Source of the DNA: Trypanosoma brucei
Taxonomy: Eukaryota
Direction: 5' to 3'
Length of the DNA stretch: 64,000 nt
Assembly (NCBI GenBank): GCA_000002445.1
Contig: CP000066.1
Coordinates: 1,344,001 to 1,408,000, forward strand
The position numbers were made by a program, and so were the translations under genes. The notes beneath the pieces are model-generated. The model had not been told where the DNA came from and ran no database searches. It saw nothing but the letters and a program-made list of their open reading frames with translations. This document shows, one piece after another, positions 3,913-54,573 of the stretch (position 1 is its first letter; each line of letters opens with the position of its first letter).

Positions 3913-4119
3913 TGCTTGTATGAACAATTAAAACAAAGGTCCGCTGCTTATGCCGCCCGCCCTATAAGCAACAGGATACTCTATACCTTGAAGAAGGAAC
4001 GGAAAGAAGTGATGAAATAGGGAGAACGCGGCAATACCGGAATGCTGATGCACTAATGGGACCGCATAGCACCGCTACGGAATTCTCGATAGAAACTACA
4101 CCCGAGACCATTACGTACC

Positions 4120-5394: not shown

Positions 5395-5764
5395 GACAAA
5401 TTCACAGATCTGCCCCGTACCTCACCGCTCCAAACATCAAACCTTGGAGAGGCAACATCAAAGGAGGATAGGGAACAACAAAGACATATGGAGGAGTAGC
5501 AACCGCAGGCTGCAACACTGTAGTGACGGGGAACCAACAAAAAATATGCAAACGCCATGTCCACCACTCACAAGCAAGCTGGTGGGAAGTCTCCCGATGA
5601 ATGGTAAAATAAATGTTACCCACTCATGCGCTAGCAATAAACTTTACCAATACTACCTCCTTCATGTTTCTCATTTCTCCCTCCCCAACCCTAAAAATAA
5701 AATTCACCTGTGTTTCCTGCACACACAGTCATGCGTAGTGGAGCCATGCACAAAATATACTGGC

Positions 5765-28946: not shown

Positions 28947-29561
28947 TCAAATCCTTTTCGCTAAAGCCACACCCAGAGAACACATTATACGAATGCCATT
29001 GTACAAAAGTGGGTACGCTGGTGCATTTTCTGCGCCATTTTGCTCCCCGAGCTCCTGGTGATGCAGTTCTTCATCCCTGAACCGAGCAACATACTCCATG
29101 ACTTCTGCCCAGTCCTTTTCATCCTTGCCTTTCGAAGCACCTTCCGACTCCTCGAGGGATTGTAGCTCCCTAAGCTGATCATTATAGTGCTGTGCTATTG
29201 TGACTTCAACAGCAGCATGGCAACACATTACTGCATCCTTTCCCAGAAGAGCGGTGCAACTACCCATCACAAAGGCGCCCACGTGAAACAGTGGATCTAG
29301 TAACGTCAAGCGCACCGAATGCTTACGAGCTAGGTGACCCATAACCTCTTCGTGAACGAGCTCATCCCTCAGTATCTCCTTGACAACTGGCACGCCACTA
29401 TCGAGGGGGGACATCCATAGCAACTGATACTTGCATATGCGCACCGCAGCCACTTCCCCAGCCTGGTCAACGCGCACAGCTTCATCGAGCTTTTGCCGCT
29501 TCGCCGCGCTTCTGAAAACACGAGCTGGGTTCTGAAGGTTAACCACCGATCTGCGTAACAT
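28947..29561 (-). CDS. COQ7: Ubiquinone biosynthesis di-iron monooxygenase COQ7 (5-demethoxyubiquinone hydroxylase).
   Basis: RVDQAGEVAAVRICKYQ, LLDPLFHVGAFVMG, AVEVTIAQHYNDQLREL and FRDEELHHQELG...APAYPLLYNGIRIMCSLGVALAKRI match the COQ7/CLK-1 di-iron carboxylate motifs (ExxH pairs). This is the first gene of the minus-strand PTU, adjacent to the strand-switch region. Confidence 0.85.
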   Translation of the reverse strand: MLRRSVVNLQNPARVFRSAAKRQKLDEAVRVDQAGEVAAVRICKYQLLWMSPLDSGVPVVKEILRDELVHEEVMGHLARKHSVRLTLLDPLFHVGAFVMGSCTALLGKDAVMCCHAAVEVTIAQHYNDQLRELQSLEESEGASKGKDEKDWAEVMEYVARFRDEELHHQELGEQNGAENAPAYPLLYNGIRIMCSLGVALAKRI

Positions 29562-32059
29562 ACCTAACTAGCTTCAAGGGAAGGCATTTAGCAAACAAAC
29601 AAACATACAAAAGGATATATTGCCTAAAATGGTCGCGCAGCGAATGAATTGCTGAGACAAAGACTCCCAAACTATACCCCCTCTGGGATCAAGTAGGAAA
29701 TGAACATACTGTGGGATACTCGCGTTGGATCCGCCTCCTGTGAACCAGTATTTTCCATACGAGATGGCTGCTTTAGCGAAAAACCGACGAAGCAGTTCAC
29801 ATGCGTACACGGAGATGCGCACGCCGAGGTCAACCCTGGCTGGCCCGCTCCAGAACCGACTCCCAGTGCTGCCGCTGCAGAGAAGAGGGGAGAACGGCGA
29901 TGAATTCAGCGTGAGAACCCAGTTTACAATACCGTGGTGGGGCTCCTCCTACGCTACTTTGCCCACAAAAGCAGCCACACTCAACGCCTCCAGGCACGTG
30001 GAGGAAAATAAAGAAAGGTAAGAATCTCTTCTAACCCGAGACGGTGGCTCCACAGACCCTCAGCCTACTTCTAGCAACCAACGCAGTCGAGGACGGTAAT
30101 GAGAGGGAGGAAGCAGCCCGTTCACAATCAGCTCCAGGAAGCAAGAAAGACCTCGTAACCGCTGCTCCGAGTCGGGTGCCCACACGGGCAAAACTCCGCG
30201 CACCCTTTCGGGCCTCGGCACAGACCCAGTGCGATTCCCCATCCCACCTCTCCCAAAAAGTCCACCAGTGCGCTGTGCTTTCCACCTGACCACAGTCGTC
30301 CTGTTGCCAATATAACCCATTTCTTAAGGGAAGCCCCGTCGTCCACAGTTAAAAAGACGGCGTGTGGTCGTAGCGCCATGGGACTCTCCATATCTGTGCC
30401 TGCTGCTGAAATGCTCGCCCCGGCGATTGCCGTCCCTACAGCAGGCTCGTCTATTCAGTGAAAAAGAGAGGGGAGTTGGCATGTTGCGTGTGTGTGTCGG
30501 GGCTCAGTGCCTTCGTTGCTCCTTTGGGATTTCAGTATCAGTTTTTTACTCTCAGCACGCGCGTCGGCCACGCATAGGCCGCCTTTCCCGTTGGGGCGGC
30601 GTTCGCGCCCTTCTTTGAACGGGGTCGGCTTTACCCCTTTATCGTTTCCGTTTTTTTTTTTTCGAGGCTTCCTCCAGCCATATGTTCTGAGGATGGGTGT
30701 TGGGTACAAACTTCGTTGAAGTACCTGCTTAAGGTTCCTATTTTTTAGTTGTTTATCCCCCAAGTGGGGGTTACCTCGTCTGCGCCTTTGCCTGTGTGGG
30801 GCGCGGAAGACGGGACGGCTTACGACGGAGAGAGGTGCTCCTTTACAGGGGTAGAACGTTGCCAAACTTTTACTGTTTAGCCAAATCTTTTTGGTATATA
30901 TTTTGAGTATTAATTACCCTTTGGAGTGTGCACGTGTTGTTTTCCTTCACTTATACGCGTGTTCCCCGACTTCCAACTGTTGTGCAAGTCTCTTCCTTGG
31001 TTATTAAAAAAACACTAGTGGTTACAAGTTGCTTTACCATATCCTTACCGGTTGTTTTATTAAGGTGGTTCCGTTCAATTATGCGCGTAAGATGACGTGA
31101 TGTATTTATGTAATACGCATAGGCTTGTGTAAATGTGGTTTTCCACAATTCCCACAAATGTGTTACTGTGGATAGTTGTTTTTGTTCCGTTACGCTTCTT
31201 TGTTTTTAGACTATCGCGCACGTCACGGTTTAGGTCGCTTCCACTGCTCTTGTTGTTGTTGCAACGTCCTCGGCTATCTTCTTTGTATTGATAAGTGCGC
31301 CCGTCCGTCATAGCTAACCTGGTTGTTGTTAAGGGTTGTCAAATCTACCTATGCTTAGTACTTTATGCATTTAGGATATGCGCAGAACTGAACTTACTTC
31401 GTTTTTGCTGCCTCATTTGCCGATTCAGCACAGATGGGATGCTTTGCGTCTGCTTCATGGGGTGTGGAGGTGACGGTTTTTAGGTAACAGCCGACCTGCG
31501 TTTCTTTGTACCACTCTTTGGAGGACGACACTCCCTTTTTTGTGTCGCTGGGAGAAAGCGAGTAGTCGGAAAAACGAATGGTTCGCATCAGCGGTTGTTT
31601 ACTTCTTCAGTTTTGTTGTTTGTCACCCCCGTTTATGTGGCTGTTCGTGCAGATTTGTGCTTGTGGTAACCTGTGGAATGGTGGGCAAATCAGTAAAATC
31701 GTAGCGGTTGAGCCGTTTTAGCGCACATTTGGTGATTTCTTATGAGCAGTTTATAATAGGGGGTAAAGAGTGTTTCTGCCCCTTACGTCATAGGGTGGTT
31801 GTGCCTGTGGCGATGGTGCAGGACGGAATATTCTAGGTAACTTCTGGTTGTTCCGTGCTGCTAACCATATGGGGGAAATGCATGTTTGATTCTCTTGTTG
31901 GTTGTATTTAACAGCAAGTGATAACTTTGTCTGTTTCTTGTCATCATTTTCGAAGGTGACTGTTCCACTGAAATGTGATATTTTGCCGCCGACTTCGCCC
32001 CTCTCGACACTTGCAAGCAGCAACAGCAGCAAAGAGTGATGTGAAGTGACCAGGAAGCT
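29562..32059. promoter_or_regulatory. Divergent strand-switch region between the two PTUs, the putative bidirectional RNA Pol II start region. It is GT-rich on the plus strand toward the plus-strand PTU.
   Basis: Coding strand polarity switches from minus (COQ7 start at 29561) to plus (IPT start at 32060). No credible ORF lies in between. From 30600 to 32000 the plus strand is strongly G/T-rich (gttgttgttgcaacg, ggttgttgttaagggttg, and similar). GT-rich elements are the known promoter class at trypanosome divergent strand-switch regions. Confidence 0.6.
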
Positions 32060-33436
32060 ATGAGGTCTATTTACTTTGTCATAGGCGCGACCGGCAGTGG
32101 TAAGTCACTAGCAGCAGTTCGAGTTGCTAAGACCCTTCAGCTCAGGTGTGGCTGTAACAATGTGGTAATATTGAACTGTGACGTTATGCAGTTTTACGCC
32201 GGTCTTCCCATTGTGACGAACAAGATATCATCGGAGGAAATGGATGGGATTCCTCACTGCTTTATGAGTTTCCTTTCTCCCGAGGGCAATAAAATTCGCG
32301 ACCCAACGTTGGCATTCGGAGGTTGTGACCGTGAAGCATTTTCTGAACAGGGTTGTAAGTCTGCAAATGATGCGTATAATATTCATTCATTCGTTCGCGA
32401 TGCTGTAAGTTATATCGAAAGCTTTTTGTCAACTCATTCTCCTGCAGCGGTGGTCGTTTGCGGTGGAACGTGCTATTACGTCCAGTCACTGCTTTTCGAC
32501 AATCTTTTAACTGTAGAAGATACTCATGTGTCGGGGTGTCTGGACACAACTGGCGGGTGCGCAGAACACACCGAATTGAATGATGGGAATTCTCTTTGGG
32601 ACCAACTGAAGGATATTGACCCGGACATTGCTGCTCGATACCATCCCAACGACATCAGACGGATTCGGCGCCTCGTCGACATATACAAAAGGACCAATAG
32701 GATACCATCCGATGTTTATAACTCCAGGGAGAAGCCGCGACTTCGATTTTGTCCCAGTACGTGCTTCATATTGTGGACACACATTGAACTTGAAAAGCTT
32801 AGGCCAAAACTCAACGCACGTATAGATGTGATGGTCGAAAAAGGGATCATTGAGGAATGCCGCAAATTTGCTCAGCGGCATAAAGAGGACGTTTTTACGC
32901 TACCCCTAGGGAAAGCCATAGGTTTTAAAGAAATTGTTTCGTCCTTTGACATGTCGGGAAGTGAAGTTCAACTAAAGGGCGAACGCGAAGTTTCAGAGTC
33001 GCTGGATCTTCTGAAAGTGAACACCAACCGATACGCACGGCAGCAGTGCCAGTGGATAAAAAACCGCTTTCTTGGTCGTCTTCGCGAGCTGTTTGCTACT
33101 GTAAATCTGGAGGAAAACTTTGTTGCAGTTGACGCCTCTGCGAGTCCTTCCGATTTTCTTCGGCAAGTTGAAGTTGCCGTTTTGTTTTTCACCAAACGGA
33201 CGTGCGACAATGTCGCTGGGTTGTTTTTTCCATTGAAAAAAGATGTGTCAATACCATCCCCGGTTCGGCACGAGTGGTGTGGCGTCTGCAACGTCTTTTA
33301 TACCGATGGGAGGGGGAGAATCTCACATCTGCATTCGAAACGACACAGGGGTGCCCTAAGGCACGAGGCGTTGGTGAAGGAGCAAGCTGAGAAGTTTGGT
33401 CGGATAATTCCTTCTAAGAGAGTTAAGCGGTCGTAA
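32060..33436 (+). CDS. tRNA dimethylallyl(isopentenyl)transferase (MiaA/Mod5 family) with a C-terminal C2H2-type zinc finger.
   Basis: P-loop VIGATGSGKSLAAVRVA, conserved DxxQ(F)Y(AG) region and the C-terminal zinc finger WCGVCNVFYTDGRGRISHLHSKRHRG typical of eukaryotic Mod5. Confidence 0.9.
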   Translation: MRSIYFVIGATGSGKSLAAVRVAKTLQLRCGCNNVVILNCDVMQFYAGLPIVTNKISSEEMDGIPHCFMSFLSPEGNKIRDPTLAFGGCDREAFSEQGCKSANDAYNIHSFVRDAVSYIESFLSTHSPAAVVVCGGTCYYVQSLLFDNLLTVEDTHVSGCLDTTGGCAEHTELNDGNSLWDQLKDIDPDIAARYHPNDIRRIRRLVDIYKRTNRIPSDVYNSREKPRLRFCPSTCFILWTHIELEKLRPKLNARIDVMVEKGIIEECRKFAQRHKEDVFTLPLGKAIGFKEIVSSFDMSGSEVQLKGEREVSESLDLLKVNTNRYARQQCQWIKNRFLGRLRELFATVNLEENFVAVDASASPSDFLRQVEVAVLFFTKRTCDNVAGLFFPLKKDVSIPSPVRHEWCGVCNVFYTDGRGRISHLHSKRHRGALRHEALVKEQAEKFGRIIPSKRVKRS

Positions 33437-34720: not shown

Positions 34721-35130
34721 AAGATATGTATTGTTCCCTTTTCACTTCTCTTGCATCAGGAAAGTCGTTCTAGAATCAATGAGACCACTTCGGTTTCATT
34801 CACTTAGCAGCCACAGAGGCGCGGTTGGAAACCTCTTTGATAGTTTGCAATCATTAAGTTGCTTATACACCACACCCCGACTTCTGTATGTTTGTGGGTG
34901 TGTACACGGAACCACTGCAGCCCTCATTTTCTTGAACCAGTTGAAATACTCTATTTGAAAGCATTCATTTTTCCTGTTTTTGTTTTACTGCTTAGCAGAG
35001 AAAAAAGGGGGAATTCTATAAGAAGGGGTCACGATCGGAAAGTTTTTAAAAGGTGTCTTAACAAAAGTAGCAGATTATCGGGGTGTTGCGGCGGTTAGTC
35101 ATTGAAGAACGGACGCATTTTTCCCCCCCG

Positions 35131-35438
35131 ATGTTGGCAGCAACGGGGTTCCGTCTCCATACCTCAAGCTCATCAAAAATAACGAAACAGTCCAAGGCAG
35201 GGTATACCTCACGCAGCCCGGGAAGGACTTCGTCACGTGTATCACGGATTTAATCTTTTCTTCTTGAATACGCGTCTGGCTTGGAAATACCTCCCGGCAG
35301 CTCAATGCAGGAGTTGCCTTAACTCGGCGGGAGCGGTTACTTCTGGAAAGCGCAACTAAAGATCTTCTTCGACTCGTCCCCTTTAGTTTCTTCATCCTCG
35401 TTCCGTTTGCCGAGCTCCTGCTACCTGTTGCACTGAAG
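35131..35438 (+). other. LETM1: Conserved LETM1 N-terminal coding segment lying in shifted reading frames relative to the downstream LETM1 ORF. No in-frame ATG is available.
   Basis: Frame 2 (35183-35297) encodes AAREGLRHVYHGFNLFFLNTRLAWKYL, matching human LETM1 [29 protein letters not shown]. Frame 0 (35268-35438, bounded by TGA at 35265) encodes LNAGVALTRRERLLLESATKDLLRLVPFSFFILVPFAELLLPVALK, matching [41 protein letters not shown] and continuing directly into the 35439 ORF. Frame 1 has ATG 35131, MLAATGFRLHTSSSS..., a presequence-like peptide. Deleting one C at agCCCGGgaag (~35217) and one C at ctCCCGGcag (~35297) restores a single ~481-aa ORF. Confidence 0.55.
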
Positions 35439-36575
35439 ATGTTTCCGGACCTGATTCCCTCAACATTTGAGAGTGAAAATCAGGGACGCAACAAGGCCTT
35501 TACGACTCTTATGGGAACGGTGCGTGCCCGACGCCGGTTGGCGGAATACCTGTCGTCCACTGCTTTTGTAAGCTTTACGAAAGAACAACAAGAAGTGGTG
35601 CGTTTCTCGGCAATGGGGGAGGCGGTGACCGCGAACCAGATACGTTTAATTGCACCTCATTTTGGTCGGGAAGGGCCGTTTAATGTCTACCAGATCCCCA
35701 ATGGTATTGCAGTAGCTCTGGCAAGGACTGTGGGAGTATACAAAGCATACCATGGTCTTGTTCCTAACAAAATTATGGCTCCTTACATGCGTCGTAAGAT
35801 CTTGCGGCAGTATCATAAAACCCGCGAGGATGACCGTATGCTACGTTTGGAGGGGCTTGACGATTTAACGGATGAGGAGCTGATAAAGGCGAACCTTGTT
35901 CGGGGTATGCGCTGGACAGAGGATGCGGAGACACTACGTATCCAACTTGAATGGTGGATATCTCTAGGACGTGACCCGGATGTCCCTTACAACACCCTTT
36001 TCTGGGTCAAGCCTACCCGATACAGCTTGAAAGAGTCAATGAAACGCTTGCCTGTGGAACAGCGCCGGCAGCTATTGGGCATTCAACATCTTCCCGAGAG
36101 CATTCGTGGAAATCTCGAGACACTCTGCGAAACGGTCGACACAGCTCCATCCATGAGTGAGGGTAAACCTGAGGACGCTGATCAGCTAGTGGAGAAACTT
36201 GCAGAGTTAAATGCTAAAACGAAAATCAGTGATAAGGATATTGCAATTCAGAATATTCAAATATCGCTGGGCGCTTATCTAACGGAACCAAATGTGAAAC
36301 GTATGTTTGAAGACATTCGCAAAAGTAAAACAGTGAACGAATATATAACAGTTACGGATGTCATAGATTTCATTGGAAGTGAAACCCATAATTCTTCCCA
36401 TGTAGTTTCTACTGTGTTTGATGCGTTCGATCAGAGTAGCGGAGTGAAGGCAATTACCGAATCTACACTCATATCTATCGGGGCCCGCTGCAGGGAGGCG
36501 TCAAAGGCACATGTCGACGTATCGTCTCAGTCTTCCCCAGGCAAACAGCCTTCAGAGGTGATTGCAAAAAATTAG
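35439..36575 (+). CDS. LETM1: LETM1-like mitochondrial inner-membrane protein (K+/H+ exchange; LETM1 ribosome-binding domain). This is the ORF as it stands from the first in-frame ATG; the true N-terminus is probably upstream (see the 35131-35438 segment).
   Basis: MFPDLIPSTFESENQ matches LFPNMLPSTFETQS of LETM1 immediately after the TM helix. Downstream are LETM1-domain helices and a long acidic/coiled C-terminus. 378 aa from this ATG. Confidence 0.8.
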   Translation: MFPDLIPSTFESENQGRNKAFTTLMGTVRARRRLAEYLSSTAFVSFTKEQQEVVRFSAMGEAVTANQIRLIAPHFGREGPFNVYQIPNGIAVALARTVGVYKAYHGLVPNKIMAPYMRRKILRQYHKTREDDRMLRLEGLDDLTDEELIKANLVRGMRWTEDAETLRIQLEWWISLGRDPDVPYNTLFWVKPTRYSLKESMKRLPVEQRRQLLGIQHLPESIRGNLETLCETVDTAPSMSEGKPEDADQLVEKLAELNAKTKISDKDIAIQNIQISLGAYLTEPNVKRMFEDIRKSKTVNEYITVTDVIDFIGSETHNSSHVVSTVFDAFDQSSGVKAITESTLISIGARCREASKAHVDVSSQSSPGKQPSEVIAKN

Positions 36576-38458
36576 GTTGTACCGGTGTTTTTTCCCCGTA
36601 TCATCACCAACGTTTACCGACTGTTCGCCATGGAGGAAGCACCATGACTGTAGGTTCATCGAGGGGGGGGGGTAGCAACCCCGAAGAACATATACATTAC
36701 TTCCGCCTTGTGCTCAGGGACATTGAACTACCATTTGCTCCAGTGAACGATGTTTCATGACAAAGACTGGTGCGAAATTGGTATGTATTACGTTTATGTA
36801 TGTGCGGATTAATGTTTTGGCTCCCGTTTTCTCTGTTCAGGGCTGCGGCGTTACTAGCGCGATTAAAGAACGTTGGGTGGGGAGGGGGTATAAGGCATGT
36901 TTACCCTTGTACCCGGGTGTAGCACAAATTTATGCGGCAGCAGGGAAGTATATGAACATAACTGTAGGGGTCCTGCGCGAAGAGCGGGTGACGTGCAATT
37001 ATATCATAGATCTGAAACTTGAATGAAAGCATTCTACTTCGTTTTTAAATTCCCCCTTTCTACAACTTTGAGGAAAGATATACATCAAGTGATCCATGTA
37101 GCCGCACATGAAACCCAGTTCGACTGGCTGTTGTTACCGTGCATTCGATATTGGGAAGAGGACGGCACCCCTTCCCGCTATTTCACCCACGGGTGCGCTG
37201 CGAACGTTAAACGCTTCAACGACGTCGGGTTTCTTTCGACAGTTTGGTGTCGCTGGTAATGGAGTGCAGAGTTTTCCGAAGCAAGCTCAAGAAAGGGCAT
37301 GTTCCCACCCGACTGCTAAATTTCTTTCAGGCAAATATAAGCGGTGGATACACCCGGTGGATTTCGAGTCTTTGAACGAACCCACCCTGTCAATTTGATT
37401 GTGATGAGTTATGTGATATTTTTCTATCATGTTTTGGCGCGTCATAATGACATAGTCACTTCTTTGTGTTTTACCCGAGTCGGAGGCGCCACTTAATACT
37501 ATGTAGGTGAGTTTTTGGTGGGATTCGGCTCAGCAGTTGCACTATTGTGACTCCGTTGATACACAGCGTGTCGAAGGCATGCACCTTATTTCGATAACCA
37601 CATCAATGAAAAGCGTTGTGTTTCATGCGAACTTTGGTGTTTCACACATTCTACTTTACCTCTTTTCATACTGGAGCGGTAGTTGGGATCATGTTTACGA
37701 CGGTATCTTTTTAAAAATATATATATATATATATATATACCATCTGTTAACCCAGTTATCTGTTTTTCGTTGTTTGTGGCGTCGGTTTTGTTGTTAAAGG
37801 CACATTTTAGCGCCATCATTACCTATTAGTGCCCCGATTTGTTGTCGTTGTTATCACTGGAAGTTTCTTTGTACTGTAGCCACTCGTTACCGTGAGTGGT
37901 TGAATCGTTTTTCGACTGGTCAACTATTTTGACTTGAAGGACCCGTCGTATCCTCTGGCATGTGGTGTTCGTGGTTGATACAAACGTGTTTGTGCGTGGT
38001 TTGCTGGGGTTTCGACTGCAGCGCTTGTGTTATTTGGCAGTGACCACAAGTACAAACTGTCTGTCGCACAAACCACCTAGCTAGCAAAAAATTTTGCCAC
38101 ATGCACGTCTTGAATAAACGGACGTGGCGACGTTCATGCTAATTTCATCGGTTACGTTGCTTGGGGGAAGTGCTGTAGCATTATTCGCGATAGGGGAGGG
38201 ATTTTTTTTTTTGGAGTGTTTATTTGTTTCTTCCCTTTAATGGTGCAGAGGAATGGGCTTGATACAGCTCGGGGATGTCGCTGTACTTTGATCGGGGGAA
38301 ACGACTAAAGGGTATCTGTGAAGATGTTTTTGTTGGTGGGGAGATGCTTAGAGGTGAGTTATCTACATGGAAGTGGGTCTGCATTGCCGCTGCCTGCATT
38401 CCCTTATTTTGAACGGTAGTCGCTCAACGATGCTTCTTCCCACATATTTTGAGAGCGA

Positions 38459-43002: not shown

Positions 43003-44502
43003 ATGCGGCGTGCATTGTACCGTGGGGTGACCGAGTCAGGAGCTGAAATAAGAAATTTTGCTGTTCACGCTGGATGCATGCGACGCTGGTGCAGCGCTGC
43101 GAGTGGTTCTTCGCGTGGTGATAGGCCCACTGATTATGATGTACCTCCACCGCGCCCCGCCTTTTATGTGCCCCCGGAGGAACGAGCATCAGACGATGCC
43201 TCGCTACAGTTTCTTCGGAAAGACAGTGGAGTGCGCTCAGGTCTGATGAAGGGATGTGGGGATGCGACTGGTGAGGTTAAACTAGAGCCTGGCCAACTCT
43301 TCGCCCCCGAGCCTCCCGTCCGCCCGGCGGAATCACCCAGTTACATCAATGAAAAAGCAGCGCGATTGTCATCTACAAGTGTCCGCGCAGGGGCCTCCTT
43401 GTTAACGGGGGACATCGGAGCAGAGGTCAGTCGTCTAGCGGTGGTGAAAAATTCCACATCTACGCGGAACCGAAGCGAGAAAACAGATGCATCTCCACCC
43501 CTCACGTATGGGGGGAGTAAAGGATCGATATTTGAGTCGAGGGACGTAGCCGATGGAGTGCCGGAAGGGAAAAAGATCAGACAACATGAAGGAACTGTTG
43601 GCAGAGGTGAGGAAGGCGGAGAAACCACTGGAGGAAATCCCACTGGCGATGAATTGCCGCTCTTACAACAAATGCAGGTTGATCTTCGCCGTCTGGAATA
43701 CTACCAGGGGACCCCCCAATATCCAGAGATGCTGAAGGAGTTCCGCGCAAAATACTTATCTGACGGCGGTAGCGAGGGTGAAGGGGACGGACGTCTGGAG
43801 GACCTTCGGTCTTACACCCAGGAAGAGCTGGCGCGCGGACTGGAGTCACAGCCAATTGATTATCTTCGGGCTAGCAGTAAGTTGAAGGTGGAGCTTACCA
43901 GCGGCCCCAGAGCGTACGACCCGGTACTTGTCATGCAGCAGATGGGTGTGATGCGGTTTCAAGGGTATGCTTTCCCTCCCACGACGGAATTAGGTAGGCT
44001 ATGCGACAGTGATGGAAAACTGCCGGACTCGAGCGAAGGTGCCCATAGATTTGCCAAGTATGTAGCTCAGACGGCTCCAACAGCCATCAAAGATCAATTG
44101 AAAGGCAATGAGGACAGGCACATTCTCTATCGAACAATGGGCCTAGACGTCGTACAACGCCGACAAGTGAAGGCTATGTTGAGTGACTTTGACCACGGTG
44201 ATCGCCATACGTCATACCATGTGATGATGTCGTATCCCTACGCTGACTGGTTACATGTGTTCTACATGGTTTTGGTGGGGGTGGCGATATATGAGATGCA
44301 GGTTCGATTTTGTGCGTATGACTTTTATGATGAGTATTTGGGATTGGACCTGCGCCAAGTTCCCAAATTGAAGAAGCCCTTCCTTGTCACTGTTACTGTT
44401 GTGGTGATGGTAGTCGCACTGTTTCACCCACTGCTTCTAGTTAGCATTGCAACCACGCGTCTTTATCGCATCGCGATGAAGCGCCCTGTTGGACCTCCAT
44501 AA
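43003..44502 (+). CDS. Hypothetical protein with C-terminal transmembrane helices.
   Basis: 499-aa ORF with an ATG start. The C-terminus VFYMVLVGVAIYEM ... LVTVTVVVMVVALFHPLLLVSIA is predicted to be 2 TM helices. The N-terminal half is low-complexity Ser/Gly/Glu-rich. Confidence 0.45.
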   Translation: MRRALYRGVTESGAEIRNFAVHAGCMRRWCSAASGSSRGDRPTDYDVPPPRPAFYVPPEERASDDASLQFLRKDSGVRSGLMKGCGDATGEVKLEPGQLFAPEPPVRPAESPSYINEKAARLSSTSVRAGASLLTGDIGAEVSRLAVVKNSTSTRNRSEKTDASPPLTYGGSKGSIFESRDVADGVPEGKKIRQHEGTVGRGEEGGETTGGNPTGDELPLLQQMQVDLRRLEYYQGTPQYPEMLKEFRAKYLSDGGSEGEGDGRLEDLRSYTQEELARGLESQPIDYLRASSKLKVELTSGPRAYDPVLVMQQMGVMRFQGYAFPPTTELGRLCDSDGKLPDSSEGAHRFAKYVAQTAPTAIKDQLKGNEDRHILYRTMGLDVVQRRQVKAMLSDFDHGDRHTSYHVMMSYPYADWLHVFYMVLVGVAIYEMQVRFCAYDFYDEYLGLDLRQVPKLKKPFLVTVTVVVMVVALFHPLLLVSIATTRLYRIAMKRPVGPP

Positions 44503-48000: not shown

Positions 48001-49856
48001 AGGAAAATGATGCGTCTCTCAGTGGGCGGCAGTTCTCTCCTAACCAAAGCAGCGCGTCGCAGCAAGAACCGCGCTGCTCAGAGAACGGGGTTGAGGGGGG
48101 GAGGTCGTCTGAACTGCGTCCGATAAGTGCTCTTGCGGGGGAGTCGGTTTGCTTATGGCTCAAGAATATGCTGATCACTATGGAGGAAAGGAGCCGCGGC
48201 TTACTTGAGGATTTGTGCTATCATGAATACAGTGTCCTCGAGCGGATGACGTCCATCGGCTCTCTTTTTTCGTTTGGCGAAAATGCTCCCAACACGAGGA
48301 GCCCTGAGGTGGCCGCCAGGGTGGTTGACCGTACTTCGGTGTCTGCATGTAGTGACCATTTGCGCGGTGGTTTTCGACTTGGATCAATATGTGGTGTCGT
48401 GCCCCATGATGCTCCTTGCGTGCCTAGCCTCATGCATACTGAAGCGGACTGCGGTTTAAGAGATGCAGCATCGGAACATGAACAACTTGCCCAGCGTATA
48501 GTCGCGTTTGAACGGCTGCAGCATCAACGTGAGGTCGAGTTTCAGCAGAAGGATGAGCAAATCAGGGAATACCTAGTTGAAGTGGAGGCGATGGATCGTG
48601 AAAGGATGGCGATGTATCGCTTAAAGGAGGAGGAACACGAGGCTGCGGCTGCACAGTTGCAGATGGCAAAACGTGAGTTTGACCACCGTGTTAATTGCAT
48701 GCAGCAAACCCTTTTTTGCCGCGGCGCGCAGCAACACGCTGAGTCCATAGTCTTGCAGGAGGCCGCTGAACGTGAGAACATTTTTCGGCTATTCAACATT
48801 CAACTTCACAAGATTTTCGCCCATGAGAGAAACATGGCGCACCATACGAACTGTGTGGACTTGTTGCGCCAGAGAGAGGAGGTGATCACGCTTGAGGAGG
48901 CACAACTCCAGAAACGTATAAGTCAGCTAAAGGACGAGGAGGATGAGTGGAAAAGACGTCGTTCCACCGAGGAGACGCAGATACTCACGTACCTATTGGA
49001 GCTACAAAACGAAGATATGCTGCGCAAGCAAGCCATTGGGGAGAAGGGAAGCAGAGAGGACACCGCGAAATACTGCGAAGACGCCGAACTCGGGGTTGCG
49101 GGTTTGTGTAATGTGATGCATCGAGTAAGGGATCACACGCAGAAGTGTGAACTTGCGGTACAAAAGATGGAGAGTGAACTGGAACAGCAGGCAGATGCGG
49201 AGAAGGTCTTGGAGGAACGTGAAGCTGCTGTTGAACGGCGCCGTCGTGAACTTTCCACCAGCATGGAGTCTCGGGAGCGTTCCCTTTTGGACAGGGAAAT
49301 GGAACTGGAGGAGTTGACTCGTCGGCTTAAAGGTGACATACAAAAACGTGAACTTGCGATACAAAAGATGGAGAGTGAACTGGAACAGCAGGCAGATGCG
49401 GAGAAGGTCTTGGAGGAACGTGAAGCTGCTGTTGAACGGCGCCGTCGTGAACTTTCCACCAGCATGGAGTCTCGGGAGCGTTCCCTCTTGGAACAGGAAG
49501 TGGACCTACGGAAACTGTCCACTAAAGCAGGGGATAATTGTCGTAAACGTCCGGGTTCTCGTGTGGCACATAATCAGGAAGGTTCCTACTACGTTGACAT
49601 CAAGAAACTTCTGGAGGTCTGTGGATTTCAACTGCCGGGTGGAAAAGTTGAATTCCCGGACGGCGCTGACACACCGATTGAACTGACCGATAACCTTATC
49701 GACGTTATCGAATCACTACGACGCCAGCTAAAGGTATGGATTCAAAAGTATCGTGTGCTGAAGTCAGATGAGAAACTGGAGTGTGAACGCTGTTTGTGGC
49801 AGAATAACCGTGGTGCCACTGTGTGCCGATGCTGCGGCAATGCTCAACTTGTGTAA
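45072..49856 (+). CDS. Kinesin-like protein. It has an N-terminal motor domain, a ~1100-aa coiled-coil stalk containing a tandemly duplicated 67-aa segment, and a C-terminal RanBP2-type zinc finger.
   Basis: Motor motifs: P-loop GSTGSGKTYTMMG, switch I NERSSRSHAIF and switch II LVDLAGSER. Long heptad-rich E/R/K/Q stalk. The C-terminus ECERCLWQNNRGATVCRCCGN fits the W-x-C-x2-C...N...C-x2-C RanBP2 ZnF pattern. Confidence 0.9.
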   Translation: MSMHRDLLRIRRQTSNLVSSPSPPSSRASPRARVSSARGEQRQGASEAVHVAVRVRPLSVNEAGQDVIVSMDPSAKKIFVRNRGEEQQEFPFELPVWSCGGNALNGSPPVSQAALYKMVGQPLLDHAFEGFNSTLMVYGSTGSGKTYTMMGDMDGGFLGEDEDVLNDGEEGIVPRLCREMFQKIRDRSVSLSDGGTLTWDVHASYVEVYCEKISDLLNNGAPVTIREVITDNEAHFALNGAQRVNVRNSAEILHLLKIGNRHRKTASTAMNERSSRSHAIFVVELTEMLVVRGPDGECVGAPGKFLTVRLVDLAGSERVGEAGMSGQLFKEGVDINCSLFTLGMVIEALSDPSRRHMRPPYRDSTLTKILKDAFGGNSKTTMICTIAPTEAQRVHTVQTLQYGLKARRIVNKPCAKRGPSAKELRKASEEMLSLRQKRRERQPQGTGLEESYADLRRAGDGGLHNGGALRHSESSSEGKETSLGGSNFATDEERDRYRRKMEELEEEIERARARYREQGRELQNIRRESAAEAEVRLRALEAQFNEKENHLKRKGHEIQRKHRDAESRLKEFKNFSEERISDLLRAQGELKDKLHEKELAVGQRERELQEAQSRAEEEVSRLHQRMMQQERKWLERHKALEAEICAQEDKMRDRLRDAMERMRNVEEVAARRESELHRKWLDAQQATRELHHKLAESEAEKARQISQDRRETTKRESELAHKLEETERGRKALEREAVSLKTELDVLKEDYEMLAKNSREGCDAEARLLPLEEELKRREERLQQREEQAQASLDEVLKKQEELDRLHLAVIAKADAIEKDAVAALRERESRLQKREDELKSLEHELEARSAVLDVEAKYKSMEYDTKESGAEALASRERRATELLQDELQEALQRVHLDMKQREEKFDRMEDDIKRCREQLENLYNERDEMLRRASTSSAGRSCVFDSPLPVPPRGCRRCRSGTSWPSNCSTMGTGEENDASLSGRQFSPNQSSASQQEPRCSENGVEGGRSSELRPISALAGESVCLWLKNMLITMEERSRGLLEDLCYHEYSVLERMTSIGSLFSFGENAPNTRSPEVAARVVDRTSVSACSDHLRGGFRLGSICGVVPHDAPCVPSLMHTEADCGLRDAASEHEQLAQRIVAFERLQHQREVEFQQKDEQIREYLVEVEAMDRERMAMYRLKEEEHEAAAAQLQMAKREFDHRVNCMQQTLFCRGAQQHAESIVLQEAAERENIFRLFNIQLHKIFAHERNMAHHTNCVDLLRQREEVITLEEAQLQKRISQLKDEEDEWKRRRSTEETQILTYLLELQNEDMLRKQAIGEKGSREDTAKYCEDAELGVAGLCNVMHRVRDHTQKCELAVQKMESELEQQADAEKVLEEREAAVERRRRELSTSMESRERSLLDREMELEELTRRLKGDIQKRELAIQKMESELEQQADAEKVLEEREAAVERRRRELSTSMESRERSLLEQEVDLRKLSTKAGDNCRKRPGSRVAHNQEGSYYVDIKKLLEVCGFQLPGGKVEFPDGADTPIELTDNLIDVIESLRRQLKVWIQKYRVLKSDEKLECERCLWQNNRGATVCRCCGNAQLV
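49147..49548 (+). repeat. Near-perfect tandem duplication of 201 bp (2 copies) inside the kinesin stalk coding region.
   Basis: Copy 1 (~49147-49287) and copy 2 (~49348-49488) share over 140 nt with only 2 mismatches (gtgaacttgcgGtacaaaagatggagagtgaactggaacagcaggcagatgcggagaaggtcttggaggaacgtgaagctgctgttgaacggcgccgtcgtgaactttccaccagcatggagtctcgggagcgttccct). They encode the duplicated peptide IQKMESELEQQADAEKVLEEREAAVERRRRELSTSMESRERSLL. Confidence 0.85.
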
Positions 49857-51381: not shown

Positions 51382-54300
51382 ATGGGAACAATAGAAGGCA
51401 CAACTGTGGATTTTGATCCTAACCCACTTCAATGCCCCACTAAAACCATTCTTGTAGGGAATGAGGACGCTACTGCCGGTGTATTACCGCGCACAAGCCG
51501 GCACATTGACTTTACTGACGACGGTAAACTATTCGAGGGTCATTTTACACTCCAAGCTAGCAGTCTCAAATCAATCATTCAAGTTCTTGCAGACCAGCAA
51601 GCGGAGCAGCGGGTAATCATCAACGACCTACAGGATCAGGTGAATAATCTTCGGCAACAAACATCGAAAATGCGTAAGTCGGTACCCACACTGCAGCTTC
51701 CTGCCTCAGTAGGGGGGAGCGCTAAGTCATTTTCCAAGGAATATGAATCCCTTGAACAACGGGTAAAGTCGTTGGAAGGGTTCAGATCACTATGGGGGGC
51801 CCGCACTGAGGATGTGGATGGACTGATAAGTATATACGGGGATCCCGTTGTTACTCCTGACGAGTACACCACTTACATTATGAACCTCCAACCCTTTCGT
51901 GTGGTACGAAGTGAAGCGCGTCACTTTGTTACTTCTCAGGCGGAGCAGCAGAAACAGGCCGTTCGTACTGTGGGCGGTGAAAGAAATGAGAGAACACGCG
52001 GTGCGCGAAGTGCTCGCCTTGCTGATCCTGGGGATGCGGCTGATGATGGTTCGCGGACTCCGCGTGAAGGCGGGTCTCGCGCTCCTCGTGATGGGAGTCA
52101 GTCTGGTCGTGATGACTCACGTGGGTCTCGCCGGTTCCGCAAACGCCAGTCCGCTGATGATGACTCCAAGCCCGCTCGTGAAGATGATTCCGGTGCTCCT
52201 CGCGATGATAGCCAGTCTGGTCGTGATGGCTCGCGTGGACCTCGATCGGCTCGTAATCGGCAGGCTCATGATGCTGAGAGGAAGTCTTCCCGCGATGACG
52301 ACTCTCGTACAGTTCGTGATGACAATAATTTTGCTAACGATGACAATCGTTCTGGCCGTGATGAAACCCGAGGGCGTCGGCGGGTTCGCGAACCCCAGTC
52401 TAATGACGATGGCACCCGGTCTCCAATCGAAGAGTCCCATGCCAACCGCGACGACACCCGGCCTGGCCGTGACGATTCGCGCGGGTCCCGGCGGCAGCGC
52501 AACCGTCAGTCGCACGAGGACGACCTCAAGTCCTTCCATGAGGAGGATGCTCGAACCCACCGTGGCGGGCCCCGTGGGGCTCGCGACCGCGTCACTTATG
52601 GTGAGCATCTGGATTCTCGTGACGGGCTGCGGCAGGACAATATTGGGGATGGGGACACGATATCCGACTTGTCTAAGCGCCTCCAGTTGCTAGAGCAGAG
52701 GGTTCGGTCCGTACACGGCGGCCACAAAAATAATGCTCAGGGATCAGCATCTGAGCAACTGTCGCCAACTTCTGATGCCACCGGCGCAAAGGATTTACAG
52801 GCACGAGAGGACATTGAGGAGTTGAGTCGGTTCGTAGCAAAGCGCTTCAAGGAACTCGAGCGTTCTATTGCGAAGGTTCAAGGTGGAGACTTAAATGTCA
52901 CAGCACCCAAAGCCGGTATGGGTGCAAGGAAATCTGAAACCCCTCCCAAACGGAGGGAGAGATCCCCAACAGTAATGTCCAAAGGTCAGACCGGTGCTGG
53001 GGGCAGCGGGCCCGGTCCGAGTGGCGCCGTTGAAAGTGATCTTCTTCAGAAGGCCGGTAAACCGAGGGAGATTGCCCCTAGTTATACTCCGGTTGTGGAT
53101 GAGGTTGCCCGTGATGACGCTGCCGCTGCATTGGAGCAGGTGGAGCTACTCGAGAAGTATGTGGTGAGGAAGCTAAAGGAACTCACGCCGAGCCTAAGCA
53201 AAGGAGTATCAGACACACACATCTCATCACCCCCAATAGGTTCCACTTCCACTCAGCCTCCTGAACGGCCTTCCGGGGAGAGCCACGTCCCCCGCGGTGC
53301 TGACCGTTCCGCTTCCGAGAAGGTTGCAGTGGACCAGGCTGCTCGAGAAGATACCTCTCGCTTATTTGAACTTGTACATGACCTAGAGGATGATTGGGGG
53401 AAGCGGTGGGCTTCGTTGGAAGAGCGCCTTCGTATCATTGGGCGCGCAGCCGTGAACAAAGGCTCAGTTAACGCGGCCGCACCCGGTACGATCGACAGAA
53501 GAGCGCGGGAGGACGCTTCCATATCACTCATGAGAGTTCAGCAGTTGGAACGAGAAATTTCTAGCTTCCGAAGACTTCTCATGAAACGAAACGGGGCACC
53601 CATGGAAGTTGGATTGTTTGAAGGCCGTATGCAAAGCGGTGGCGCATCCAAGTTAGTAGTCGATGCGCGGGACCAGAAGGAACCAAATGACAATGGTTGC
53701 GCTGGTCTGGGGGCTGTCTTAGAGGGTGCAGATTCCCAGTCACGCGTCCTTGCCCTAGAAAAGGAGGTAGAATCACGGATGGAGGAAGTTAACCGAGCGC
53801 TTGCCACCCTACGTACAGCGCAAGTTGGTCAAGACTTTCCCGATCTTAGCTTTCTGGGAGATGACACAGGAACAAGAAAGTCTACAGCGCCGAGCCAAAT
53901 AGTAATCAGCACCCGGGAGATGGATCTTGCTGCGGCCGGAAATTTTCGGCGCCCGACCCCTGATACGAAGACGTACGCGGCAATGCTTGTCATGTCGTCT
54001 TACGACCCTGCACAACCGTTTCATGGCAGTTACTCAAACTACGATCAGGGGAACCCTATCGTGCTTCGCCCGCCTCAGATGGAGACGTTTGCAACACCAC
54101 TAGTCAGGCGTGAGCCGCAGGATAATCTTACACCCCGGACACGCGGCGAAGCCGGGGTAGCAGTTGGTACACCTCAACATGAAAAATCACCCGTGAACAA
54201 GGCAGCGACTCAGAGCGGTGAGGCGGGCCTATCACCTTCAGGAACGGGTAGCTGTCCCATTAGGATGTCTGGACCAGCGCCGCACCCACCCGACGGGTCT

Positions 54301-54573
54301 GCAATCTGCCCCGTTGCTCCGCACAAACAGAGTGTGATGCAGCACTTGGGTGATATGAGGTCTGTATCTTCTAGAGTGCGCGGGAGGGAGTCCACTAGGA
54401 TGGGGTCGCAGAACATCTTAGGACGAGAAACTGTGCTAGGGACGAAGGGTAGGGCAGGATTAGGTCTTGTTGCAGAATCAAGTGCTTTGGGGCACCGGAC
54501 GCCGTGTGTTGTTCCTAATTGCGCGTGGTGCGCAGTTCAAAATGTAAAGGCAACAGTAAAAACGGCACGCTGA
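51382..54573 (+). CDS. Hypothetical protein of 1063 aa with an internal degenerate Arg/Asp/Ser-rich repeat region and coiled-coil segments.
   Basis: ATG start preceded by a ~180-nt polypyrimidine tract (50640-50820). Amino acids ~230-390 consist of ~38-aa degenerate repeats (APRDGSQSGRDDSRGSRRFRKRQSADDDSKPAREDDSG / APRDDSQSGRDGSRGPRSARNRQ...). The remainder has heptad-like segments and a Ser/Pro-rich C-terminus. Confidence 0.55.
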   Translation: MGTIEGTTVDFDPNPLQCPTKTILVGNEDATAGVLPRTSRHIDFTDDGKLFEGHFTLQASSLKSIIQVLADQQAEQRVIINDLQDQVNNLRQQTSKMRKSVPTLQLPASVGGSAKSFSKEYESLEQRVKSLEGFRSLWGARTEDVDGLISIYGDPVVTPDEYTTYIMNLQPFRVVRSEARHFVTSQAEQQKQAVRTVGGERNERTRGARSARLADPGDAADDGSRTPREGGSRAPRDGSQSGRDDSRGSRRFRKRQSADDDSKPAREDDSGAPRDDSQSGRDGSRGPRSARNRQAHDAERKSSRDDDSRTVRDDNNFANDDNRSGRDETRGRRRVREPQSNDDGTRSPIEESHANRDDTRPGRDDSRGSRRQRNRQSHEDDLKSFHEEDARTHRGGPRGARDRVTYGEHLDSRDGLRQDNIGDGDTISDLSKRLQLLEQRVRSVHGGHKNNAQGSASEQLSPTSDATGAKDLQAREDIEELSRFVAKRFKELERSIAKVQGGDLNVTAPKAGMGARKSETPPKRRERSPTVMSKGQTGAGGSGPGPSGAVESDLLQKAGKPREIAPSYTPVVDEVARDDAAAALEQVELLEKYVVRKLKELTPSLSKGVSDTHISSPPIGSTSTQPPERPSGESHVPRGADRSASEKVAVDQAAREDTSRLFELVHDLEDDWGKRWASLEERLRIIGRAAVNKGSVNAAAPGTIDRRAREDASISLMRVQQLEREISSFRRLLMKRNGAPMEVGLFEGRMQSGGASKLVVDARDQKEPNDNGCAGLGAVLEGADSQSRVLALEKEVESRMEEVNRALATLRTAQVGQDFPDLSFLGDDTGTRKSTAPSQIVISTREMDLAAAGNFRRPTPDTKTYAAMLVMSSYDPAQPFHGSYSNYDQGNPIVLRPPQMETFATPLVRREPQDNLTPRTRGEAGVAVGTPQHEKSPVNKAATQSGEAGLSPSGTGSCPIRMSGPAPHPPDGSAICPVAPHKQSVMQHLGDMRSVSSRVRGRESTRMGSQNILGRETVLGTKGRAGLGLVAESSALGHRTPCVVPNCAWCAVQNVKATVKTAR
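52080..52540 (+). repeat. Degenerate 114-bp (38-codon) tandem repeats of about 4 units inside the 51382-54573 CDS.
   Basis: gctcctcgtgatgggagtcagtctggtcgtgatgactcacgtgg at 52082 and gctcctcgcgatgatagccagtctggtcgtgatggctcgcgtgg at 52196, 114 nt apart. Further diverged copies follow. The repeats generate spurious long ORFs in other frames and on the opposite strand. Confidence 0.7.

What the first reader, a model, noticed from the sequence alone, without database searches (positions are those of the whole stretch)
35131..35440. LETM1 N-terminus is conserved but split over three reading frames at two CCCGG contexts
LETM1 is a single-copy mitochondrial gene, and RNAi knock-down in T. brucei is lethal (reported by Lukes and colleagues). 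Here the downstream ORF (35439-36575) starts exactly after the conserved TM helix. Strongly conserved LETM1 residues continue upstream with no in-frame ATG: HVYHGFNLFFLNTRLAWKYL in frame 2, and LNAGVALTRRERLLLESATKDLLRLVPFSFFILVPFAELLLPVALK in frame 0 after a TGA at 35265. A plausible start with a presequence-like peptide (MLAATGFRLHTSSSS) sits in frame 1 at 35131. Removing one C from agCCCGGgaag (~35217) and one from ctCCCGGcag (~35297) yields one continuous ~481-aa LETM1. The options are two homopolymer/compression sequencing errors, a strain-specific pseudogenisation of an essential gene (unlikely), or recoding. Whichever applies, the annotated ORF would lack the essential TM helix.
Basis: partly seen in the sequence, partly recalled or inferred. 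Interest (0 to 1): 0.6.

Follow-up and report, generated by a model that had tools for sequence, protein, structure and literature searches.

The report
Reference-assembly indel errors truncate trypanosome LETM1
The start of the essential mitochondrial LETM1 gene looks broken in this Trypanosoma brucei reference sequence because of three single-base errors found in no other strain's assembly, so the gene is almost certainly intact and only the database gene model is wrong.

Summary
In the window, the LETM1 N-terminus is spread over three reading frames, and the only long ORF (35439-36575, 378 aa) starts just after the transmembrane helix. The window is T. brucei brucei TREU927 chromosome 3 (Tb927_03_v4 1,344,001-1,408,000), and the gene is Tb927.3.4920.

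Seven other Trypanozoon sequences are all intact and encode a 481-aa protein. They come from T. equiperdum OVI, T. b. equiperdum IVM-t1, T. b. gambiense DAL972 and four short-read assemblies. The window differs from them by three private one-base indels within 86 bp:
- a missing T (TT to T, next to 35205)
- a missing A (AA to A, next to 35211)
- an extra C (35290/35291)

None lies in a CCC run.

Published data agree with an intact gene. Ribosome footprints cover the annotated "5' UTR" at coding-level density, in TREU927 cells too.

The best explanation is base-calling or assembly errors in the Sanger-era reference. The resulting 378-aa model has been copied onto DAL972, IVM-t1 and Lister 427. 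Recoding and pseudogenisation are not supported. Biological interest is low, but there is some curation value.

The parts
34964..34993 (+). Polypyrimidine tract upstream of the trans-splice acceptor
   Evidence: Read directly from the sequence: ttcatttttcctgtttttgttttactgctt, followed by AG at 34994-34995.
34996..34996 (+). Predominant spliced-leader addition site (first exon base) of Tb927.3.4920
   Evidence: Kolev 2010 (PMC2936537) Table S12 gives predominant SAS 1378996, 5'UTR 443 nt to the annotated ATG, and dispersion 0.8. The offset of 1,344,000 was verified with four genes. The site is 135 nt upstream of ATG 35131, and no other ATG lies in between.
35131..36575 (+). Complete LETM1 (TbLetm1, Tb927.3.4920) coding region as it stands in the window, with three one-base lesions. 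The intact form is 1446 nt / 481 aa.
   Evidence: The intact 481-aa ORF from the same ATG is present in L001-L007. Orthologues share the start and are 478-481 aa long.
35205..35206 (+). Lesion 1: one T missing. Relatives read GGGTATTACC; the window reads GGGTATACC.
   Evidence: Private to the window among 8 sequences.
35210..35212 (+). Lesion 2: one A missing. Relatives read CCTCAACGC; the window reads CCTCACGC.
   Evidence: Private to the window among 8 sequences.
35290..35291 (+). Lesion 3: one extra C. Relatives read AAATACTCCCGG; the window reads AAATACCTCCCGG.
   Evidence: Private to the window among 8 sequences.
35251..35253 (+). Apparent premature stop (TAA) of the frame-1 reading caused by lesions 1 and 2
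   Evidence: Listed as the end of 'uORF1' (1379253) by Jensen 2014.
35373..35429 (+). Sequence encoding the single transmembrane helix (LVPFSFFILVPFAELLLPV, residues 82-100 of the intact protein)
   Evidence: Hydropathy maximum of 2.1. It lies upstream of the annotated start.
35439..36575 (+). The 378-aa ORF that is the current database gene model for Tb927.3.4920. It is N-terminally truncated.
   Evidence: ORF list. Listed as 378 aa in TriTrypDB r42 (Cosentino 2021 Table S2). The same truncated model appears in IVM-t1 (RHW73371.1), DAL972 (CBH10209.1) and Tb427v10.
36945..36945 (+). Predominant polyadenylation site
   Evidence: Kolev 2010 Table S13: 1380945, 3'UTR 370 nt.

Best explanation
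The window is the Sanger-era reference sequence of T. brucei brucei TREU927 chromosome 3. The split LETM1 N-terminus is an artefact of that assembly. Three single-base calling or assembly errors within 86 bp (TT read as T, AA read as A, C read as CC) break what is really one 481-aa ORF starting at ATG 35131.

The real gene encodes a normal LETM1/Mdm38-type inner-membrane protein: an N-terminal presequence-like region, one TM helix and the LETM1 ribosome-binding domain. The mRNA is trans-spliced at 34996, which gives a typical 135-nt 5' UTR, and it is translated from the first AUG.

Because the reference is broken, curators annotated the longest remaining ORF (378 aa, from ATG 35439, without the TM helix). 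Annotation-transfer pipelines then copied that truncated model onto genomes whose DNA is intact.

Shown:
- The lesions are private to this assembly.
- All relatives are intact.
- The SL site lies upstream.
- Ribosomes occupy the 'UTR'.

Inferred:
- The lesions are absent from real TREU927 DNA. No TREU927 reads could be examined.
- The truncated models arose by annotation transfer.
For: 1. Origin of the window. 16 of the window's ORFs are exact matches to TREU927 proteins (AAZ10509-AAZ10531, on a 1,653,225-bp contig), and several are unique to that strain. Coordinates tie to Tb927_03_v4 with offset 1,344,000.

2. The lesions are private to this assembly. Seven other Trypanozoon DNAs all carry GGGTATTACCTCAACGC and AAATACTCCCGG and encode one 481-aa ORF. 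They are OVI, IVM-t1, DAL972 and four Logan read-set assemblies (ERR7929156/159/161/164).

3. The lesions are clustered and of one type.
- Over 12.6 kb against OVI there are 28 substitutions. Apart from a run of Ns in the OVI record, the only indels are one intergenic G-run length change and these three.
- At the background rate, P(3 or more indels in 86 bp) is about 4e-7.
- All three are doublet collapses or expansions.

4. The same assembly has another private one-base deletion (TT to T at about 56089). It splits Tb927.3.4980, which is an intact 550-aa gene in OVI, IVM-t1 and DAL972.

5. Cosentino 2021 documents another TREU927 gene that appears wrongly split (Tb927.2.5860/5870).

6. The SL acceptor is at 34996 with dispersion 0.8. 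The 5'UTR becomes 135 nt, against a genome median of 130 nt, instead of 443 nt.

7. Ribosome profiling in Lister 427 (Vasquez 2014): footprint density in the annotated 5'UTR is 85.8/42.4 rpkm (BF/PF), against 75.2/60.8 in the CDS.

8. Ribosome profiling including TREU927 cells (Jensen 2014).
- Footprints on 35131-35253 number 100-253 in six TREU927 samples, where neighbouring genes' uORFs sit at about 5.
- The region downstream of the apparent stop (35305-35322) has the same relative occupancy in 927 (0.22) as in 427 (0.22).

9. Only synonymous differences separate the window's LETM1 from its relatives.

10. In Tb427v10 the distance from the start of the neighbouring signal peptide peptidase (SPP) gene to the LETM1 ATG is 1778 nt. 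This equals the intact spacing; the window has 1777.
Against: - No read-level or independent TREU927 genomic sequence could be examined, so a genuine lesion in the sequenced clone or in one haplotype is not formally excluded.
- The footprint evidence is indirect. A real 40-codon uORF would also carry ribosomes, and re-initiation at ATG 35305 could mimic read-through.
- The 927-versus-427 ratio rests on small counts over an 18-nt feature.
- Three errors in 86 bp is unusual for a finished Sanger assembly unless coverage there was a single poor read. That is assumed, not shown.
Confidence: 0.88

Rival explanations
1. The three indels are real in TREU927. They would be either a null LETM1 allele on the haplotype that was cloned and sequenced, complemented by an intact second allele, or mutations acquired in the sequenced BAC or plasmid clone.
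For: The lesions sit in the deposited reference and were kept through versions v4 and v5. T. brucei is diploid and heterozygous, with about 4 variants per kb in Lister 427. Allele-specific premature stops exist in T. brucei (Cosentino 2021). A heterozygous null would still give footprints from the good allele.
Against: - Three independent frameshifting indels fall in 86 bp, with no substitution nearby, against one other indel in 12.6 kb. Natural mutation does not usually produce this pattern.
- The net change is -1, so the indels do not compensate each other.
- The ratio of footprints downstream to upstream of the apparent stop is the same in 927 and 427 (0.22 versus 0.22). A heterozygous null would be expected to roughly halve it.
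- The same assembly has another private one-base frameshift in a gene that is intact elsewhere.
- A mutation in a sequencing clone would still be an artefact.
Confidence: 0.08
2. The 378-aa ORF is the true product in this strain, and the upstream similarity is a decaying relic (strain-specific N-terminal pseudogenisation).
For: It is the annotated model. The ORF is intact and identical in protein sequence to its relatives.
Against: - The product would lack the presequence region and the only TM helix, as well as the first 40 positions of the LETM1 domain.
- The mRNA starts 443 nt upstream, and two AUGs precede 35439.
- The 'UTR' is translated at CDS level.
- The upstream region carries no substitutions relative to OVI other than the three indels.
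- LETM1 is reported as essential in T. brucei (Hashimi 2013, title cited; the paper itself could not be read).
Confidence: 0.02
3. Recoding: two programmed +1 ribosomal frameshifts, or transcript-level editing, restore the frame.
For: Only that conserved coding sequence continues across the frame changes.
Against: - A programmed shift should be conserved. Seven relatives at 99% or more DNA identity, and all more distant trypanosomatid orthologues, have a single unshifted ORF.
- The homology changes frame about 40 nt before the frame-1 stop, not at a stop or a hungry codon.
- The lesions are a missing T, a missing A and an extra C, so they do not fit U-insertion/deletion editing. That editing is in any case confined to the mitochondrion (established knowledge).
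Confidence: 0.01

Closest known systems
Interrupted coding sequences caused by sequencing or assembly errors in reference genomes. Examples are Tb927.2.5860/5870, apparently wrongly split in TREU927 (Cosentino et al. 2021, PMC8445201), and the interrupted coding sequences of M. smegmatis (PMC1852416, abstract only).
   Same: - One-base indels are private to one assembly and break an otherwise conserved ORF.
- Independent assemblies restore the ORF.
- Expression and translation data ignore the break.
- The annotation is split or truncated as a result.
   Different: There are three lesions within 86 bp rather than one. The outcome is an N-terminal truncation annotated as a normal gene, not a pseudogene or a two-gene split. 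The truncated model has also spread to other genomes by annotation transfer.
LETM1 / Mdm38 family (Pfam PF07766; yeast Mdm38 structure 3SKQ; TbLetm1, Hashimi et al. 2013)
   Same: There is a full-length LETM1_RBD match (148.8 bits) preceded by one TM helix. The trypanosomatid orthologues are 73-84% identical within Trypanosoma. Synteny with signal peptide peptidase is conserved; the two are even fused in an L. donovani gene model.
   Different: No EF-hand domain is detected by Pfam at E <= 0.01. The sequence match to the solved Mdm38 domain is weak (E = 9e-4).
Programmed +1 ribosomal frameshifting (antizyme, bacterial prfB, Euplotes)
   Same: Coding information continues in the +1 frame after a break.
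   Different: The shift is not conserved in any relative. The frame change is not at a stop or a shift-prone site. Two or three events would be needed within 86 nt.
Unitary pseudogene or allele-specific premature termination in T. brucei (Cosentino et al. 2021)
   Same: There are frameshifts and a premature stop in the reference haplotype.
   Different: The gene is expressed, trans-spliced upstream and ribosome-covered across the break. Its coding sequence is identical to that of relatives, and the lesion pattern is typical of base-calling errors.

Membership tests
LETM1/Mdm38 family | LETM1 ribosome-binding domain (Pfam PF07766) above the gathering score | tested here: met
   The short ORF scores 79.5 bits (profile positions 41-225). 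The intact 481-aa form scores 148.8 bits (profile positions 1-225). The cut-off is 25.3.
LETM1/Mdm38 family | Single transmembrane helix N-terminal to the domain | tested here: met
   The hydropathy maximum of 2.1 falls at residues 82-100 of the intact protein. The helix is absent from the 378-aa model, whose maximum is 1.07.
LETM1/Mdm38 family | N-terminal mitochondrial targeting presequence | not tested
   No targeting predictor was available. The N-terminus MLAATGFRLHTSSSSK is basic and hydroxylated, and its start is conserved among Trypanosoma orthologues.
LETM1/Mdm38 family | C-terminal EF-hand (metazoan LETM1 only) | tested here: not met
   No EF-hand family is found at E <= 0.01 in Pfam. 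This does not affect membership of the wider Mdm38/LETM1 family.
Sequencing/assembly artefact | Lesion private to one assembly; independent assemblies and technologies agree on the alternative | tested here: met
   The window stands against 7 other sequences from 3 deposited genome assemblies and 4 read-set assemblies.
Sequencing/assembly artefact | Error-type signature: one-base indels at repeated bases, clustered locally | tested here: met
   TT to T, AA to A and C to CC fall within 86 bp. Poisson P is about 4e-7 at the background indel rate.
Sequencing/assembly artefact | Other lesions of the same kind in the same assembly | tested here: met
   Tb927.3.4980 is split by a private TT-to-T change at about 56089 and is intact in three relatives.
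Sequencing/assembly artefact | Raw reads of the same strain contradict the consensus | not testable with these tools
   No TREU927 reads or second TREU927 assembly could be reached. The only indirect evidence is the TREU927 ribosome-footprint counts.
Programmed ribosomal frameshift | Frameshift conserved in orthologues | tested here: not met
   All relatives and orthologues have one continuous ORF.
Programmed ribosomal frameshift | Shift-prone site at the frame junction (a slippery or hungry codon next to a stop) | tested here: not met
   The homology leaves frame 1 at about 35206-35212, while the frame-1 stop is at 35251. No stop lies at either junction.
Pseudogene | Loss of expression or translation, or relaxed constraint | tested here: not met
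   - There is a tight SL site and a polyA site.
- Footprints in the 'UTR' match the CDS level.
- Differences from relatives are synonymous only.
- Divergence is too low for dN/dS to be decisive.

The most novel reading that the evidence does not exclude
The three indels are genuine in TREU927 DNA on one haplotype. The genome strain would then carry a heterozygous null allele of an essential mitochondrial cation/proton-exchange and ribosome-tethering gene, and the reference happened to capture the dead allele.
Probability: 0.07. Interest if true: 0.35.

Novelty: not a real feature. Interest (0 to 1): 0.15.

Why it matters
There is no new biology here. The value is practical. Tb927.3.4920 (TbLetm1) is an experimentally studied, essential gene, yet its reference model lacks the presequence region and the only transmembrane helix.

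The truncated model has been propagated to at least three other genome annotations whose DNA is intact: DAL972, T. b. equiperdum IVM-t1 and Lister 427 v10.

The error affects several kinds of work:
- proteomics databases, which miss the N-terminal peptides
- targeting and topology predictions
- N-terminal tagging and knock-in designs, which would insert a tag inside the protein
- uORF and 5'UTR statistics, because two ribosome-profiling studies list the true N-terminus as 'uORFs' of a 442-443-nt UTR
- orthology-based length checks that use TREU927 as the gold standard

The neighbouring gene Tb927.3.4980, labelled 'pseudogene, frameshift', appears to be the same kind of error.

Tried and rejected
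- Hashimi et al. 2013 (the TbLetm1 paper) and Parsons et al. 2015 (TREU927 re-annotation) are not held in the library. I could not see whether the truncation has already been reported.
- Searches for 'Tb927.3.4920' and 'TbLetm1' found only two papers, and neither mentions a frameshift.
- The Nilsson 2010 supplements have no entry for the gene.
- The TREU927 assembly is not indexed in the look-up of encoding contigs, so the reference record's own annotation could not be read. That LETM1 has no CDS in the GenBank record is inferred from the consecutive accessions AAZ10524 (signal peptide peptidase), AAZ10525 (208-aa ORF) and AAZ10526.
- I hoped the Logan runs ERR79291xx were TREU927, because they encode a protein identical to a TREU927-unique one. 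Their DNA differs from the window by about 0.5%, so they are another strain and give no read-level test.
- One look-up was wasted on wrong minus-strand coordinates.
- I considered a generally error-prone long-read assembly and rejected it. The window is clean against OVI, whereas IVM-t1 is the assembly with about 30 one-base deletions in 21 kb.
- I considered mitochondrial-type U-indel editing and rejected it. This is a nuclear gene, and the lesions include an A and a C.
- The ORF overlap at 42561/43003 is not a split gene. No window-private indel is present there.
Full report
**1. What is in the sequence**

The region reads as the first-stage reader said.
- ATG 35131 opens a 40-codon ORF in frame 1 that ends at TAA 35251-35253.
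- LETM1-like sequence continues in frame 2 (AREGLRHVYHGFNLFFLNTRLAWKY...).
- After TGA 35265-35267 it continues in frame 0 (...SRQLNAGVALTRRERLLLESATKDLLRLVPFSFFILVPFAELLLPVALK), running into ATG 35439.
- ATG 35439 starts the only long ORF (35439-36575, 378 aa).

Pfam LETM1_RBD matches the 378-aa ORF only from profile position 41, at 79.5 bits. The single strongly hydrophobic segment, LVPFSFFILVPFAELLLPV at window 35373-35429, lies upstream of that ATG.

**2. Where the window comes from**

Sixteen ORFs of the window are exact matches to T. brucei brucei TREU927 proteins (AAZ10509-AAZ10531 / XP_844068-XP_844090) on a 1,653,225-bp contig. Several are unique to that strain.

Published coordinates place the window at Tb927_03_v4 1,344,001-1,408,000. 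For Tb927.3.4910.4920.4940 and .4980, the splice site plus 5'UTR length reproduces the window's ATGs at 33662, 35439, 39312 and 55310. The gene is Tb927.3.4920, TbLetm1.

TriTrypDB release 42 lists it as a 378-aa protein (Cosentino 2021 Table S2), and v5 flags it as not a pseudogene. In the GenBank protein series, AAZ10524 (signal peptide peptidase, SPP), AAZ10525 (208-aa ORF at 38459) and AAZ10526 are consecutive. The 378-aa sequence has no TREU927 accession. I infer that the GenBank record carries no LETM1 protein.

**3. What the lesions really are**

A search with the repaired protein found a cluster that contains a 481-aa protein: T. equiperdum OVI SCU68733.1, which is also encoded in three Logan read-set assemblies. 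The cluster also holds a 445-aa Logan gene call and the 378/377-aa proteins of T. b. equiperdum IVM-t1 and T. b. gambiense DAL972.

I fetched the DNA of all of them (L001-L007) and aligned it to the window. All seven read GGGTATTACCTCAACGCAGCCCGGG and AAATACTCCCGG, and all have one open frame from the same ATG (481 aa). The window alone differs in three ways:
- it lacks a T (TT to T, beside 35205)
- it lacks an A (AA to A, beside 35211)
- it has an extra C (35290/35291)

That is two deletions and then one insertion, which produces exactly the frame 1 to 2 to 0 pattern. The true sequence is ...SKAGYYLNAAREGLRHVYHGF...LAWKYSRQLNAG.... It aligns residue for residue with T. congolense, T. vivax, T. 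grayi, T. theileri, T. cruzi and Leishmania LETM1. None of the lesions lies in a CCC run, so the 'CCCGG compression' idea is wrong in detail.

**4. Is it an assembly error?**

Over 12.6 kb the window differs from OVI by 28 substitutions. Apart from a run of Ns in the OVI record, the only indels are one intergenic G-run length change and these three. At the background rate, three or more indels in 86 bp has P of about 4e-7. No substitution accompanies them.

The window is not a generally poor assembly. The assembly with many one-base deletions is the IVM-t1 assembly, with about 30 in 21 kb. DAL972 has its own missing T inside LETM1 (window-equivalent 35758), which explains its 'LOW QUALITY PROTEIN' label.

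The window does contain a second lesion of the same type. A private TT-to-T change at about 56089 splits a gene into ORFs 55310-56134 and 56056-56961. That gene is an intact 550-aa ORF in OVI, IVM-t1 and DAL972. It is Tb927.3.4980, annotated 'pseudogene ... frameshift'.

Cosentino et al. 2021 describe another TREU927 gene that appears wrongly split (Tb927.2.5860/5870), with tagging data in support.

**5. Transcript and translation evidence from the literature**

*Transcript ends.* Kolev et al. 2010 map the predominant SL acceptor of Tb927.3.4920 to 1378996, with dispersion 0.8 nt. It implies a 443-nt 5'UTR for the annotated ATG but 135 nt for ATG 35131. The genome-wide median is 130 nt. ATG 35131 is the first AUG of the mRNA. 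The polyA site is at window 36945.

*Ribosome profiling in Lister 427.* Vasquez et al. 2014 list a 442-nt 5'UTR with two footprint-covered 'uORFs' of 122 and 17 nt. These are ATG 35131 to TAA and ATG 35305. Footprint density in the UTR is 85.8 rpkm (BF) and 42.4 (PF), against 75.2 and 60.8 in the CDS. In other genes of the same table the UTR density is usually far below the CDS density.

*Ribosome profiling in TREU927 itself.* Jensen et al. 2014 used TREU927 for their PCF and slender BF samples and Lister 427 for cultured BF.
- Footprint counts on 35131-35253 are 172, 253, 174 | 112, 100, 208 | 122, 130, 125.
- Counts on 35305-35322, which is downstream of the apparent stop, are 44, 39, 24 | 32, 25, 48 | 21, 29, 34.
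- Neighbouring genes' uORFs sit at about 5.
- The downstream/upstream ratio is 0.22 in strain 927 and 0.22 in strain 427.

Ribosomes therefore do not drop off at the apparent stop any more in TREU927 than in 427. This is indirect but argues that the real TREU927 mRNA is intact.

*Spacing in Lister 427.* In Tb427v10 the distance from the SPP start to the annotated LETM1 ATG is 1778 nt, as in OVI and DAL972. The window has 1777.

**6. Explanation**

The most likely explanation (about 0.88) is that three base-calling or assembly errors in the reference break a gene that is really a normal 481-aa LETM1/Mdm38 homologue. The intact protein gives a full-length domain match of 148.8 bits from profile position 1. 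It also shows a weak match to yeast Mdm38 structure 3SKQ.

The truncated 378-aa model was then carried onto DAL972, IVM-t1 and Tb427v10. All three annotate the same internal ATG although their upstream DNA is intact. That this happened through annotation transfer is my inference.

Rivals:
- A genuine lesion on one TREU927 haplotype or in the sequenced clone (about 0.08). This is not excluded without reads.
- The short ORF as the true product (about 0.02). It is contradicted by the SL site, the upstream AUGs, the footprints and the missing TM helix.
- Recoding (about 0.01). It is contradicted by the complete lack of conservation of the shifts in any relative, and by junctions that are not at stops.

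**7. Novelty and value**

This is an artefact, not a biological feature, so interest is low. It is still worth reporting to curators. An essential, studied gene has a reference model that lacks its targeting region and membrane anchor. The error has propagated to other genomes, and it has already caused the true N-terminus to be tabulated as uORFs in two ribosome-profiling data sets.

I could not read Hashimi 2013 or Parsons 2015, so I cannot say whether the problem has been noted before.

Noticed in passing
window 55310-56961 (lesion at about 56089): A second gene is split by a window-private one-base deletion (TT to T in GAGTCG[T]TGGAG). ORFs 55310-56134 (274 aa) and 56056-56961 (301 aa) form one 550-aa coiled-coil protein in OVI, IVM-t1 and DAL972. 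It is Tb927.3.4980, annotated 'pseudogene ... frameshift', yet it has a mapped SL site (5'UTR 135 nt) and is listed in Kolev 2010's transcript-abundance table. It is probably another reference error.
   Followed up: yes
L007 (DAL972 FN554966.1), equivalent to window 35758: The DAL972 assembly lacks a T inside the LETM1 ORF. This is its own frameshift and explains the 377-aa 'LOW QUALITY PROTEIN'. Its annotated start is the TREU927-style internal ATG, although its upstream DNA is intact.
   Followed up: partly
L006/L011 (T. b. equiperdum IVM-t1, CM010674.1), equivalent to window 25417-46590: The assembly has about 30 one-base deletion events in 21 kb, and several fall in coding sequence. Examples are the COQ7, tRNA isopentenyltransferase, 749-aa and kinesin genes, which are missing or truncated in its annotation (kinesin 855 aa against 1594 aa).
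   Followed up: partly
L001 (Logan ERR7929164 contig) 1-2845 versus window 35084: The Logan contig joins a dynein heavy-chain gene directly to the LETM1 5' region at window-equivalent 35084. Every genome assembly has signal peptide peptidase there instead, so this is probably a chimeric read-set assembly.
   Followed up: no
window 510-8380 (minus strand): The dynamin, the 424-aa G3PDH-N-terminal-domain protein and the 871-aa M1 aminopeptidase each have a second TREU927 accession. The pairs are AAZ10505/10509 (both dynamins, in one 90%-identity cluster), AAZ10507 = 10511 and AAZ10508 = 10512 (identical sequences). This indicates a tandem duplication of a three-gene unit that extends beyond the window start.
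   Followed up: no
window 29561-32060: This is a divergent strand-switch region. Genes to the left are on the minus strand and genes to the right on the plus strand. It is the expected site of bidirectional Pol II transcription initiation in trypanosomes.
   Followed up: no
window 49147-49504 and 51382-54573: The 1594-aa kinesin contains two roughly 157-bp internal direct repeats (97% identical). The 1063-aa protein Tb927.3.4970 is 1025 aa in DAL972, IVM-t1 and Lister 427, which is a length polymorphism or a repeat collapse.
   Followed up: no
window 43003-44502: The ORF is 499 aa, as annotated in OVI and DAL972, but the TREU927 protein record is 474 aa (AAZ10527). This looks like a start-codon annotation discrepancy.
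   Followed up: no
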